NCBI GenBank assembly: GCA_963678065.2
Contig: CAXXVZ010000003.1
Span: forward strand, 32,001 to 96,000
DNA length: 64,000 nt
DNA from: Treponemataceae bacterium
GTDB lineage: Bacteria; Spirochaetota; Spirochaetia; Treponematales; Rectinemataceae
Reading direction: 5' to 3'
Below, piece by piece: positions 36,001 to 57,000 of the stretch. Within the stretch, counting starts at the first letter, position 1. Each line of letters begins with the position of its first letter. Made by a program: the position numbers.

Positions 36001-39000
36001 GCGCTCGTCGCGGGATACGGGTGGAACATTCTGGCCGCCGTGATCAACCTTCGATGATGATGCGCGGCCTCGTCTCATCGTTGACCAGCCAGCGAGGTCT
36101 CGAGTCGGGCCAGCCGGTCCTCGAGCCTATCGAGCGCATCCGGCAGGGCTTTTTCGCTTTTGGCCCGGGAGCACAGGGCGGGATTGTTCACCCACCAGTC
36201 CATGCCCATTTCCTTGGCCTTATCCACCGAGCAGATAACCAGGCGAATCTGGATCGTCAGCAACTCGACATCGACAAGGTTGATCCTGATATCGCCTGCG
36301 ATGACGATGCCCTTGTCCAGAACCCGCTCGAGAAGGTCCGCCAGGTTCGTGCTTCCCACGGAATTCGTGACTCTGCGTGTTTCTGCCATTTTTCATCTCC
36401 CATTTATAGAAGTTTTCCCAGAGGGCCCAAGTCCAGATTCAAATCTTCATCCTCGAGACCGAACTCGCCGGCGATCCTGGTGAGCACCTCGGATTGTTGC
36501 ATGAGGGTCAGTCCGAGTCGCTCGATCTCGGCATCCGTGAGATCGCCCCCGTCGATCCTCCGGAGCGCCTGTTTTTCCAGGAGTTCGTGGAGGAGCTTGA
36601 CCACTGTCAGGACCAGTTGAGCCAAGCCGTCCTTCTTTTTTTCATGATCCATATCCAGACGGCGGGGCGGCAACAGCGCGCTGCCTGCCGTCATTGTTTT
36701 GGCAAAGTCTCCTATAGCGGGAGAATCCACCATCGATTCGACTGCGGGATACGCTAAAGAATCATCGCTGATGTTCATCATGTCTGGCTTTTTCCCTTCC
36801 TGGCTGTTTCCACGGAGGATACGATCACCTGCAAGCTCAGATAGATCAGATCGATATCGGCAACGGAAATTATTGCCTCACCGACAATTACAGCGCCTTT
36901 GTTGAGAATCCGGTCCAGGGCCTCGCAGAGGCTCACATGTTCTTTTTCAAGGGCGAAGTCATCGGGCATGCTGCCCCCTCCGGCTGGAGTGCGTTCCACA
37001 ATTCATCATTCTATCCATGCCGGTAACCCTCCGTTCCCGCTATCCCGCCTGCGTTGCCGGTCATATACAGGAGTTGCCCGAGGGCCGTGAGCTCTGCTAT
37101 TCCCCGGGGGTCGCTTTGTCGGTACACGAGCGTCTGCGAAGTGCCGGGGAAGGCCGCCGCAAAGCGTTCTTTGACAAGCGACTCCCGGCGGAAAATGCAG
37201 GAGCACAGAGGATCGGCGCTCTCCGGCGTCGCCAGATTCAGGAACAGGCAGGAGACCGGAACAGCCAGACGCTTGCATGCGGCCAGCAGATCTTGCGTCT
37301 CCGCAAAGGACATCTCCGTGAGAATGCTGACGGCATACAGGGCCGCCTTGGAGGGGTCATGCAGCATCGCCCGGAGGCGTTTCAGATCTTTGGAAATTTG
37401 GACAAGGCGATTGGTTATTTTCGGCAGCCGGAAAATATCCCGATATTTCAGGAAGAGACCGAATACCACCTTCAGCCACTGCTCGATGATTTCGGGGAGT
37501 TCCAGGAGTCTTATCAGATGCCCTGTCGGCGCGGCATCCAGGACCAGCGCGTCGAAGCGGTCCTCGGCAAGGAAATCCATCACCGATGTCAGCGCCATGA
37601 GCTCGTCTATCCCTGGCGGGGATAGGTCCATGAGCCGCTCGATGACTTCCCGATCATATGTCATGTCGAGGTTAGGCATGATTTTGGTCAGAAACTGTTT
37701 TATTTCACGGCGGTACTGATTTTTCAGCGAGGCGAATTCCGCCCCGGCATCCACTTCCATGGCCCATAGTCCTGGCGTTACCGGCGTCGGTTCGGAGCCG
37801 ATGCTCATGTCGAGGCAATCTGACAGGGAATGTGCCGGATCGGCGGAAAAAAGGAGAATCTTTTTTCCGCCATATGCCTGTGTCAGGCGCAGGGCCGTGG
37901 CGCAGGCCAAGGTAGTCTTTCCGACCCCACCTTTTCCCGCGAAGACGAGCAGAGACGACTCAGGCGGTGGCAAGGCGATGGAGCCGGCTACCCGCGGCGG
38001 GATCGAGGGCAGGGATGGCTGGTCTTCCGAGGCGCGCGCAGATAGCGGATCGAGCCCCTTCCAGAAGGATAGAAGGCCTTCCAGCCCCTTGATTTCCTCC
38101 GGATACATAGGGATTCCCCAGAGGCCTACGCCGGAGAAGAGCTTCTCGCGGAAGAGACGGGAAAGTTCCACCATCTGCCGGGAGCGAATATCCCTGCACA
38201 GGGTACACTGACTTTCCGGATAAAGCCGGTTGACCACGATATCCGCGATCCTGATGCCAAGGTGTTTCAGTTCACGGATCAGATCCAGTGTCTCTTCCAC
38301 GCTCAAGGCCTCGGCCAGCATCACGGGAACGAAACGGCAGCGTTGAGGGTCCTTGAGCAGGCTCTGCATCTGTTTGGCGTCGGATGTAAGTCCGGCGATG
38401 AATCGATCGAGATCGTCCTCCTGATAAGAGCCATGGAACAGCCTCTTCATATAGCGGTACTTGGCCAGAAGAGTATCCAGCGCTTCCAGCCACTTTTCCA
38501 TCAGGTCAGGCATCTCCAGGAGCCGCAGAGTGTGGCCGGTCGGAGCCGTATCCACGATGATCTCGGCATAAGTCCCGGCCGCAACCCACCGACTGATTTC
38601 CAGAAAACTCATAATCTCATCCATGCCGGGAAGGGAGAGCTCCAGGAACCGGTTGATATCCTCTTCATCCAGGAACGTTCCCCGTGAGGCGATCTCCATG
38701 AGTCTCTGCCGGTTCTTTTCTTTGAAGGAGAGAAGGCAGGCTTGGGTATCCAATTCTTCAACTTTCAGATTTTTCGGCAGCTCGGCCCCGGCGAAACTGT
38801 CCTGGAGGGAATGTGCCGGATCGGTGGAAACGAGGAGAATGGAACGATCAGGATGCCGGGTGGCGATGTCCAAGGCCGTCGCCGCGGAGGCAGTAGTCTT
38901 GCCCACACCGCCCTTTCCGCTGAAGAGCACGAGTTGCCAGCGCTCCGCGGTCAGAAAGCCCGGGGCTTCCCGGTGGTTTTTCATGACTCTGCCCGTCCTT

Positions 39001-54000: not shown

Positions 54001-57000
54001 AAGCCTCGGCTCCAGTAATATGGATAATCATCCCCGGCGCTCAGGCGAATGCCGATGGCATCGCATCCCGCCCACTCTTGCAGGGAGGCGGCCAAGGTCG
54101 ATATATGCTCACGAATATCGCCCGGCGTGTTTACAATCGCGGTAAGACATGCCATCAACTCGCGCTCGCGCTCCTGGATCTTGCGCTCGGTGATATCGCT
54201 CATCACGACGTGGCACAGGGGAGTGCCATCGGCGTCCCGCGCATCGACGATCTCCATCCGTACCCAGAATGGAGCGGCGTCTGTTCGCAGCATCCGCAAT
54301 TCGCAGGTCCGCGATGTGCCGGCCTGCCCCGATCCTGCCAGCTCAGGGCCTGTCCGTATCGAATCTGTCGAATGGGTTTCATGAGGCTGTTCGCGGTGCA
54401 GGCTGTAGATGTTCCGGTCGTCAGGGAGAATGAACGTGGTGATCGGCTGCCTGACCAATGCGCTCCTGGCCAGACCCAAGAGGGCGGCGGCGGCGGGGTT
54501 GGCCTCCATGATCAGCCCCTCATCAGAGATGGTGCAGTAGCCCACCGGGACCAAGTCGTAGAAAGCGAGGTATCGCGCCCGCGCGGCCTCCGGTTCCGCC
54601 CGCACTTCGCGCGAATCCTGCCCTGAATCTGCCGAAAGAACGACGCCACCGGAGCGGGTATCCTTGTTGTTCATGTGGGCCTTCATCGTTTTCCGCGGCG
54701 AGAGCGGCTACGTTGATGGATTTGGCCGTCGCATGCCACGGTCCGTACAAATAAGATAACATGCGTGCGTGATGTTGAACAGAGAGGAATCGAGTACCCG
54801 GCGATCGGTGTATCCGGTCCCCATAGTCGGGAGCATGAAAAAGGTCGATTATGGAAAAGGGCCGACGTGGACATGATCCTCGCCGGCCTCCTTTTCGTTG
54901 TGCCAGAGTCCCTATCAACCTTCGATGATGATGCGGAGCATTCTTCTCAGGGGCTCGGCGGCGCCCCAGAGAAGCTGGTCGCCGCAGGTGAAGGCCTGGA
55001 GGTAGTCCGGACCCATCCTCATCTTGCGGATACGGCCGACGGGCACTTCGAGCTTGCCGGAGACGGCGGCCGGAGTCAGCCTCGCGAGGCTCTCCGCCTT
55101 GGTGTTGGGAACGAGCCTGACCCAGGGGTTGTCCGCCGCGATGATCGCCTCGAGGTCGGAGAGCGGGACATCCCGGTTCAGTTTGATCGTGAGCCCCTGG
55201 CTGTGGCAGCGCATCGCGCCCACGCGGACACAGATGCCGTCGACGGGAATGGGGGAAGTCGTGCCGAGGATCTTGTTGGTCTCCGCGAAGCCCTTCCACT
55301 CCTCCTTGCTCTGGCCGTCGGCGAACTCTCTGTCGATCCAGGGGAGGACGCTGCCCGCGAGGGGATAGCCGAAGGCCTTCACGGGGAACTCGCCGCTCCG
55401 GATGGTGTCGGTGACCTTCCTGTCTATGTCGAGGATGGCGGAGGCGGGATCAGCGAGGAGGCCGGACACCGGCGCGTGCAGGGCGCCCATCTGTGACAGA
55501 AGCTCGCGCATGTTGGGGGCGCCCGCGCCGGACGCCGCCTGGTAGGTCATGGACGTGAGCCATTCGACGAGTCCGGCGTGGAAGAGTCCTCCGAGGCCCA
55601 TGAGCATCAGGCTGACGGTGCAGTTCCCGCCGATGTAGTCCCTGGTGCCGGAGGCGAGGGCCCTGTCTATCACGTCGCGGTTGACCGGATCGAGGATGAT
55701 GACGGCGTCTTTCTCCATGCGCAGCGCGCTGGCCGCGTCGATCCAGTAGCCCTTCCATCCCGCCTTCCGGAGCGCCGGATGCGTGGCCGTCGTGTAGTCC
55801 CCGCCCTGGCAGGATATGATGATGTCGAGCGTGGAAAGATCGGAGACCGAATCCGCGGCGAGCAGGGTGCCCGCGTTCATGGGCGCAGGCTTGCCCGCCT
55901 GGGATGTCGAAAAGAACACAGGTTCGAATCCGAGATCGAAATCATGCTCCTCCTGCATGCGCTGGAGAAGGACCGAACCGACCATGCCACGCCATCCGAT
56001 AAAGCCAACTCTCATACTCACCGTTCCTTGCCGGAAATTTGCATAAACATACCGTTTTGACATCGGGCTGTAAAGTCGTCTCTCCTGGACGATATGATCA
56101 TCACTGCGGTTTTTATATAAAAATCCATGAATACTTCTCCCGGGATTGGCCGGAACACACTATACTACTATGTGATACCACCCAAGGAGGCGTACCATGG
56201 AAACCGTGAAGGACATCCTCGCCAGGAAAGGCGGCGAAGTCTACAAAGTCGGGCCGGATGCAAGTCTGTACGAGGCGCTCGAGAAAATGGCCGACCTCAA
56301 TATCGGCGCCATCCTCGTCGTCGACGCGGATGGCAAGATCCTCGGGATCTTCTCGGAACGCGATTTTGTCCGCAAGATAATCATCAAGGGGCGGGATGGA
56401 GACAGCACGAAGGTGAGGGAAATCATGACGACCCGCGTTCTCTACGTCGATCCCTCGACCTCGATCTCCGACTGCATGAACCTCATGACCGAAAAGCGCA
56501 TACGCCACCTTCCCGTCCTCGAGGACGGCGTGCCCGTCGGCGTCGTCTCGATCGGCGACGTCGTCAAGGCCCTCCTGAAAAAGCAGGAAGTCCTCATTTC
56601 GCAGCAGGCCTTCCAGATCGGTCAGCTCGAGCGCTACATCGCCGGAGGACCCTGACCCACCCTGTCCACGGACGACTGATCCGGAAGGGCGCCGCTGGCT
56701 TCCGGAGGCTTTGGGATGCTTTGGAATGCTTGCGAAAATGAAAGGCATCCGGCCTCTCCTGTAAGCTACTTCGATGGAAGCTGATCCACATTCCTCCTAA
56801 TATGTTTACTTAGGAGGAATTGTGAGTTCAGTACGTTCCCGGTCATCTCGAAAGACTCTCATCCGGGCCGATGGGGATGACGATATCGGCTACATCGGTC
56901 ATGGATTCCAGAAGATGTCGCTCTCTTCGTCCCGTCCTCTCCTGTGGGGCATGTTTCTGTTCATCCTCGCCGCATCGACGGCCTTTGCCGGCGGAAGCTC

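What a model noticed while it worked through the whole genome (the two positions that open the first line are those of the whole stretch)
36075..54686. Complete proteobacterial-type gas vesicle cluster in a flagellum-less spirochaete
g00760-g00780 form an intact gas vesicle locus: gvrA-gvpH-gvpZ-gvpF2-gvpF3-gvrB-gvrC followed by gvpA, a GvpC-like gene, gvpN, gvpF1, gvpG, an ArsA-type ATPase, gvpS, gvpK, gvpJ. Gas vesicles are not reported for Spirochaetota; both family genomes that have the cluster lack flagellin, which suggests flotation in place of swimming.
Evidence so far: Gene content and order match the gvrA operon given for Serratia 39006 and the inverted operon order of Desulfomonile and Psychromonas (PMC4982088, passages read, call 189). 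Gas_vesicle family in 6 of 2,011 phylum genomes by the table and 1 of 68 family genomes by search. That genome, G048, has the same order at 55-99% identity over 18 genes and no flagellin. GvpA is 82.6% identical to a Swiss-Prot GvpA.
(Added by a program. Inside this text positions count along the whole contig: contig position 32,001 is position 1 of the stretch shown here. "Call 12" and the like, gene names such as g00115 and contig names such as C1 are that model's own, and its searches are not shown. The text may have been shortened before it was handed on; [...] marks where a part breaks off. The agent that wrote the report below was given it as the finding of a first reader that could run no searches.)

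Follow-up and report, generated by a model that had tools for sequence, protein, structure and literature searches.

The report
Gas vesicle genes in a spirochaete
A spirochaete with no flagellar filament genes carries a complete 22-gene gas vesicle cluster of a known type, likely acquired from other oxygen-avoiding water bacteria and likely used to float, but the data do not show that floating replaced swimming.

Summary
The cluster is real: 22 open genes at 36075-54686, including every gene required for vesicles in Serratia 39006, a sigma-54 site before gvpA, and rpoN in the host. It sits on a 2.4 Mb spirochaete contig with 16S and rpoB, and two other datasets bridge both borders, so misassembly is unlikely. 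Its nearest non-spirochaete relatives are Victivallales and Desulfobacterota clusters with the same gene order. G048's copy is a separate insertion, at a site empty in two congeners and in this genome. I found no report of gas vesicles in spirochaetes.

The flagellum link is weak. In the family, 2 of 40 flagellin-less genomes carry the cluster against 0 of 29 flagellated (p 0.33). In a class sample it is 2 of 94 against 1 of 306 (p 0.14), and one carrier is flagellated. Three unrelated cluster types occur in the class. Expression was not shown.

'Flagellum-less' needs a caveat: this genome keeps an open but fast-evolving flagellar export operon without rod, hook, filament or motor. It is the only one of the 40 flagellin-less family genomes with FliP.

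Verdict: a new member of a known, mobile system in an unreported phylum.

The parts
52536..54686 (-). PAS histidine kinase (NarQ/UhpB-like); first gene of the inserted unit
   Evidence: inside the G048 insertion too
51844..52488 (-). LuxR/NarL response regulator (ATG with Shine-Dalgarno at 52488)
51051..51683 (-). 210-aa unknown gene, conserved before gvrA in relatives
49627..51054 (-). gvrA, NtrC-type sigma-54 activator (GSFTGA loop)
48942..49634 (-). gvpH, Hsp20-type
46799..48937 (-). gvpZ, CDC48-type double AAA+ ATPase with intact Walker A/B motifs
46002..46802 (-). gvpF2
   Evidence: PF06386
45267..45995 (-). gvpF3
   Evidence: PF06386
43743..45254 (-). gvrB, PAS histidine kinase
43306..43746 (-). 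gvrC, single receiver domain
43199..43213 (-). predicted sigma-54 promoter (-24/-12), 84 nt before the gvpA start
   Evidence: motif in 45 of 58 related loci versus 3.7 expected
42911..43129 (-). gvpA, major shell protein, 72 aa
42280..42819 (-). GvpC-like gene: short helical repeat part plus a 21-nt repeat tail; named by position and pattern only
   Evidence: no Pfam or PDB hit
41914..42270 (-). DnaJ-type zinc-finger protein, six CxxCxGxG motifs
40833..41888 (-). gvpN AAA+ ATPase
   Evidence: over cut-off
40577..40900 (-). 107-aa gene in the gvpV position; homology to Serratia GvpV not tested
40141..40338 (-). 65-aa zinc-ribbon protein, conserved in related clusters
39362..40144 (-). gvpF1; not itself scanned on Pfam, assigned by position and by 22-42% matches to GvpL/F-type genes in other clusters
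39062..39310 (-). gvpG
   Evidence: PF05120
37011..38984 (-). two-domain ArsA/Get3-type ATPase
36778..36999 (-). gvpS (GvpA2-type)
36404..36781 (-). gvpK
   Evidence: PF05121
36075..36389 (-). gvpJ (GvpA3-type)

Best explanation
This is a complete gas vesicle gene cluster of the Serratia/Desulfomonile type in the chromosome of a spirochaete without filament genes; it was likely gained by horizontal transfer from anaerobic water bacteria and likely builds gas vesicles that let the cell float or slow its sinking, with no causal tie to flagellum loss shown. Shown: all genes are open with catalytic motifs intact, a sigma-54 site precedes gvpA, and the host has rpoN. Inferred from Serratia genetics: GvrB signals to GvrA, which with host sigma-54 switches on the gvpA operon. 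GvpA forms the shell; GvpJ, S, K, G and three GvpF proteins start assembly; GvpN and the GvpV-position protein extend bicones into cylinders; the GvpC-like protein braces the wall. Inferred from domain content only: Hsp20, CDC48, ArsA and the DnaJ-type zinc finger handle the sticky shell proteins, and the upstream PAS kinase-LuxR pair ties the cluster to an oxygen or redox cue.
For: All 10 genes that Tashiro 2016 found required, plus gvrC and gvpN, are present. dN/dS is 0.03-0.28 over 15 genes versus G048. In runs holding a second strain, the 3 indels in coding sequence are all multiples of 3 and the 6 others all lie in the 6% non-coding part. The sigma-54 motif is in 45 of 58 related loci versus 3.7 expected, and rpoN is present. 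The same gene order occurs in Victivallales and Desulfobacterota loci, and GvpN and GvpF1 trees place it with Lentisphaerota inside a Desulfobacterota-rich clade. G048's copy fills a site that is empty in G049, G050 and G000. Near-identical DNA occurs in groundwater and lake-water runs.
Against: No vesicles were seen and expression was not shown. RNA runs give only short pieces at depth about 2-20, like the flanks, and the high gvpA signal comes mostly from other organisms' gvpA. dN/dS between genera also covers time spent in donors. Synonymous distance between G000 and G048 in the cluster (pS 0.37-0.68) is no lower than in the backbone (0.48-0.69), so a recent exchange between them is not shown. 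The island's GC and tetranucleotide content fit the host, and no integrase or target repeat was seen at its ends. GvpC and GvpV are assigned by position only.
Confidence: 0.68

Rival explanations
1. Flotation is an evolutionary replacement for swimming: spirochaete lineages that lost the endoflagellum were selected to gain gas vesicles.
For: 4 of the 5 carriers found lack flagellin. They span at least two unrelated cluster types and three insertions. The one flagellated carrier has its cluster on a 16 kb contig whose tetranucleotides fit its backbone poorly (r 0.77-0.82 versus 0.90-0.97), so it may be misbinned. With G000 added, the class table gives p 0.043.
Against: 38 of 40 flagellin-less family genomes and 92 of 94 FlgK-less class genomes have no cluster. 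p is 0.33 in the family and 0.14 in the class without G000, which was chosen for the trait. Many flagellated genomes in the class are probably host-associated (my inference), so habitat confounds the count. Serratia 39006 has both flagella and vesicles (recalled).
Confidence: 0.17
2. The cluster is kept but makes no buoyancy-giving vesicles; it is silent or serves a stress role, as proposed for some soil bacteria.
For: No expression shown. Near-identical DNA is held by groundwater and sludge runs, where there is little water column. Hurt 2023 notes species with clusters but no reported vesicles. The GvpC-like gene is short.
Against: Frame-preserving indels in a second strain, an intact promoter and activator, and purifying selection on every gene tested. 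Lake-water runs also hold the DNA.
Confidence: 0.13
3. The cluster belongs to another organism and was joined to the spirochaete genome by assembly or binning error.
For: Bin contamination is 6.72%. The right-flank asd gene is patchy in the family (5 of 69).
Against: The contig is 2.4 Mb and carries 16S, rpoB and about 100 kb of synteny with G048. A 27.9 kb contig in run X3 spans the whole stretch, and run X5, a different strain, bridges both borders. X3 may be related to the source data; X5 is from another study.
Confidence: 0.02

Closest known systems
Serratia sp. ATCC 39006 gas vesicle cluster (Tashiro 2016, PMC4982088; results section and passages read, figures not seen)
   Same: [quoted passage not shown]
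   Different: The regulatory block comes first. An ArsA ATPase, a DnaJ-type zinc finger, a zinc ribbon and a PAS kinase-LuxR pair are added. Equivalents of gvpW, X and Y were not identified.
Desulfomonile tiedjei and Psychromonas ingrahamii clusters (inverted operon order, PMC4982088, passage read)
   Same: gvrA block upstream of the gvpA block.
   Different: Desulfomonilaceae loci have GvpN only 67-71% identical, and no ArsA was matched within the Desulfomonilaceae loci fetched.
Victivallales and Syntrophales/Geobacter metagenome clusters (L038, L016, L022, L027, L031)
   Same: L038 has the same order from the 210-aa gene to gvpJ, and L022, L027 and L031 from gvrA to gvpJ, including ArsA, zinc finger and zinc ribbon; GvpN 79-88%.
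   Different: Different phyla; none is known to me to be tested for vesicles.
ArsA homologues in gas vesicle operons (Castillo and Saier 2010, PMC2963123; passages read)
   Same: Two-domain ArsA of about 650 aa with gvpN, F/L, G, J, K and hsp20, including in Geobacter uraniireducens.
   Different: No spirochaete in the passages read; function still untested.

Membership tests
Gas vesicle gene cluster, Serratia/deltaproteobacterial type | GvpA major shell protein | tested here: met
   NF006874 133 bits over cut-off 100; PDB match E 1.6e-31
Gas vesicle gene cluster, Serratia/deltaproteobacterial type | Two further GvpA-family genes (GvpS, GvpJ), three GvpF, GvpG, GvpK | tested here: met
   gvpF1 by similarity and position
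Gas vesicle gene cluster, Serratia/deltaproteobacterial type | GvpN ATPase | tested here: met
   TIGR02640 over cut-off; Walker motifs present
Gas vesicle gene cluster, Serratia/deltaproteobacterial type | GvrA/B/C regulators with a sigma-54 promoter before gvpA and a host sigma-54 | tested here: met
Gas vesicle gene cluster, Serratia/deltaproteobacterial type | GvpC and GvpV | tested here: inconclusive
   Conserved genes sit in those positions but have no profile or structure match
Gas vesicle gene cluster, Serratia/deltaproteobacterial type | Forms gas-filled vesicles that give buoyancy | not testable with these tools
   RNA contigs inconclusive
Spirochaetota host | Cluster lies on the chromosome of a spirochaete | tested here: met
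   Same-family genomes carry FlaA; nearest named full-length FliG hits are Treponema/Spirochaetales; contig synteny. The family name Rectinemataceae is inferred from the nearest named GvpN record.
Non-motile (aflagellate) spirochaete | No filament, hook, rod, motor or chemotaxis kinase genes | tested here: met
   No flagellin, FlaA, rod/hook, MotA, FliM/N C-domain, FlgK or CheA; genome 99.94% complete
Non-motile (aflagellate) spirochaete | No flagellar genes at all | tested here: not met
   fliF, G, H, I, O, P, Q, R and flhB, A, F are retained as open frames

The most novel reading that the evidence does not exclude
Spirochaetes that gave up their defining endoflagella have repeatedly picked up gas vesicle clusters from anaerobic neighbours, at least three insertions of two unrelated cluster types, and now position themselves by buoyancy. 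This lineage has also turned the old flagellar export gate into a filament-free secretion machine.
Probability: 0.17. Interest if true: 0.68.

Novelty: new member of a known kind. Interest (0 to 1): 0.38.

Why it matters
It adds Spirochaetota to the phyla with complete gas vesicle clusters; a list of 288 vesicle-forming strains has no hit for six spirochaete name stems. It shows the cluster moving as a 19-22 kb unit between phyla and landing at different chromosomal sites. That is useful but expected for so mobile a system. It would matter more if buoyancy proved to be a repeated substitute for swimming in a phylum defined by its flagella. That is testable with a full phylum count, but the present counts do not show it. 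The retained export operon found on the way may be the more surprising feature of this genome.

Tried and rejected
1. Link to flagellum loss within the family: not significant.
2. Recent direct transfer between G000 and G048: protein identity is higher in the island (median 79% over 12 ORFs versus 61% over 149 backbone ORFs, p 5e-4), but synonymous distance is not lower, so recency is not claimed.
3. Independent flagellum loss in G000's lineage: the RpoB tree puts G000 outside the 13-row clade that holds G048, but one loss for all 15 flagellin-less rows is not rejected (p-AU 0.45). Row G007 was dropped because my script picked a wrong ORF.
4. Expression from RNA runs X19 and X20: low-depth pieces, no silent control, contigs only. 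Runs with small shares that I did not lay are not used for habitat.
5. Mobile-element signs at the island ends: none convincing.
6. The first sigma-54 count (47 of 62) had a slicing error in two rows; the corrected count is 45 of 58.
7. G474's weak Gas_vesicle hit is below cut-off and was not counted.
8. Phylum sample with GvpN: 0 of 400 others.
9. Metagenome scan with the 503-aa relic gene: one weak hit. Its atlas hits to FliM/FliN score under 0.9 and are a lead only.
10. The built-in promoter scan was not obtained; the sigma-54 site was read from sequence and counted by script.
11. Paper searches with no report of gas vesicles in spirochaetes.
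Full report
Observation. The stretch 36075-54686 holds 22 open genes on the minus strand. [quoted passage not shown] GvpA, GvpN and the CDC48-type GvpZ pass NCBIfam cut-offs, and the ATPase and kinase motifs are intact. Tashiro 2016 (PMC4982088; results section and passages read, figures not held) lists gvpA1, F1, G, A2, K, A3, F2, F3, gvrA and gvrB as required, and gvpN and gvpV for maturation. All ten required genes and gvpN are present. GvpC and GvpV are assigned by position and repeat pattern only.

Regulation. A sigma-54 type site lies 84 nt before the gvpA start (43213-43199). 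The same motif lies within 300 nt upstream of gvpA in 45 of 58 related loci against 3.7 expected; 7 of the 65 gvpA loci were left out for lacking 300 nt of upstream sequence in that orientation. The host has rpoN. GvrA carries GSFTGA, which I recall as a tolerated variant of the GAFTGA loop.

Is the host really a spirochaete, and is the join real? The contig is 2.4 Mb and carries three 16S genes and rpoB. It is syntenic with family members over long stretches. Family members carry the sheath protein FlaA (2 of 2 flagellated genomes tested), and the nearest named full-length FliG proteins are from Treponema and Spirochaetales. The nearest named GvpN record is titled Rectinemataceae, so that family name is inferred. 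Named records and unnamed handles come from one genome collection, so I do not add them together. One contig in run X3 spans the whole 20 kb laid, and run X5, a different strain from groundwater, bridges both borders. X3 may be related to the source data.

Origin. Of 313 GvpN relatives found, the best 80 were examined. The same order occurs in a Victivallales locus (L038) and in Syntrophales, Geobacter and other deltaproteobacterial loci. GvpN and GvpF1 trees (FastTree) place this copy in an 8-row clade with three Lentisphaerota, inside a Desulfobacterota-rich clade. In G048 the cluster is a 21.9 kb insertion at a site whose flanks lie about 110 bp apart in G049 and G050; the flanking genes are adjacent in G000 too. 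G048 shares 18 of 22 genes at 60-99%, but it has a different tail and no gvpF2 at this place. G000 and G048 are not close on the RpoB tree. Two separate insertions of related clusters is the simplest reading. Island proteins are more alike than backbone proteins (79% versus 61%), but synonymous distances are not lower, so the timing is open. The island's base composition fits the host.

Selection and expression. dN/dS is 0.03-0.28 over 15 genes against G048, though this includes time in donor lineages. More specific to this host: of 9 indels listed in the laid runs, the 3 in coding sequence are multiples of three and the other 6 lie in the 6% non-coding part. Two lake-water RNA runs of one study hold near-identical pieces of about ten genes at low depth, similar to the flanks. 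The very high gvpA bin is mostly other organisms' gvpA. Expression is therefore not shown.

The flagellum link. 40 of 69 family genomes lack flagellin. Two of the 40 carry the cluster and none of the 29 flagellated genomes does (one-sided p 0.33). An order sample of 401 genomes added no carrier over cut-off, and a phylum sample had GvpN in 0 of 400 others. A class sample of 401 found three more carriers: G786 and G825, from a family where 0 of 7 have flagellin, and G1053, which has flagellin, FlgK and CheA. Their clusters are of other types (GvpN 49% in G825, 54% in G1053). The table without G000 is 2 of 94 against 1 of 306 (p 0.14); with G000, which was chosen for the trait, p is 0.043. G1053's contig is short and compositionally odd, so it may be misbinned. 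There is a trend, but kinship, selection of the focal genome and habitat confound it.

The host is not free of flagellar genes. It lacks flagellin, FlaA, rod and hook, MotA, the FliM/N C-terminal domain, FlgK and CheA. At the ancestral site on C3 (about 1.179-1.193 Mb) it keeps open frames for FliF, a FliG without its C-terminal domain, FliH, FliI, FliO, P, Q, R, a shortened FlhB, FlhA and FlhF. It is the only one of the 40 flagellin-less family genomes with FliP. These genes diverge fast: FliG is 33% identical to G002 against 87-91% among flagellated kin. A truncated FliG recurs in three other database proteins at 66-76%, one of them from a 1.26 Mb contig; the other two come from short contigs. 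This argues for a kept function but does not show one. One shared loss of the filament in the family is not rejected (p-AU 0.45).

Literature. Searches returned no paper reporting gas vesicles in spirochaetes; I saw listings and abstract starts, and read passages of PMC7325909, PMC2602986, PMC8851195, PMC7004002 and PMC10903477. Supplementary Table 1 of Hurt 2023 (PMC10344784; passages and supplement searched) has no hit for six spirochaete name stems, while it lists Desulfobacterium vacuolatum and Syntrophobacter pfennigii. The spirochaete pan-genome preprint (10.1101/2025.07.04.663154; term search of the main text) never mentions gvp or vesicles; its supplements are closed and could bear on this. 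Non-motile, flagellum-less spirochaetes are known (PMC6052044, passages). ArsA in gas vesicle operons was described in 2010 (PMC2963123, passages). The library lacks most subscription journals.

Verdict. This is a real, intact and probably functional member of a known, highly mobile gas vesicle cluster type, in a phylum where I found no report of it. The most likely role is buoyancy in anoxic water. The claim that it replaced swimming is possible but not supported by the counts. Interest 0.38.

Noticed in passing
L102:554-14705 (G000 C3, about 1,178,550-1,192,700; outside the window): Open but fast-evolving flagellar export operon (fliF, truncated fliG, fliH, fliI, a 503-aa possible FliM-like remnant, fliO/P/Q/R, shortened flhB, flhA, flhF) in a genome with no rod, hook, filament or motor. 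It is the only such case among 40 flagellin-less family genomes, and the truncated FliG recurs in three relatives at 66-76%. Candidate filament-free secretion system; deserves its own follow-up.
   Followed up: partly
L010:7770-13156 (G048): G048's cluster is a mosaic: after arsA come a double-TetR regulator, a GvpL/F, two GvpA-family genes (one fused to GRAM-like domains), gvpK, an unknown gene and another GvpL/F, all unlike this window's tail.
   Followed up: partly
L173 (G825), L175 (G786), L176 (G1053): Two further unrelated gas vesicle cluster types in the same class. G825 and G786 share hsp20-arsA-cdc48 followed by several gvpF genes; in G825 one GvpF is fused to a DnaJ domain.
   Followed up: partly
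L104:956-19429 (G000 C3, about 97,000-115,400, just right of the window): Integrase followed by a low-GC (0.33-0.44) run of small unrelated genes, IS elements and a 1555-aa STAND-like protein. It looks like a chromosomal integron; attC sites were not tested.
   Followed up: no
window 54915-56063: The asd gene next to the island is of the gamma-proteobacterial type (TIGR01745 over cut-off) and has close matches in only 4 of 68 other family genomes; possibly another acquired gene.
   Followed up: partly
window 42398-42586: About nine 21-nt (7-aa) tandem repeats in the tail of the GvpC-like gene; the G048 counterpart lacks this array.
   Followed up: partly
window 34658-36057: ArsR-like regulator and ArsP-type permease converge on the end of the cluster; no evidence that they belong to it (ArsP absent from all 80 related loci).
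   Followed up: partly
family f1: Flagellin presence splits cleanly by genus (8 genera with, 13 without), so this family is a good system for studying flagellum loss.
   Followed up: partly
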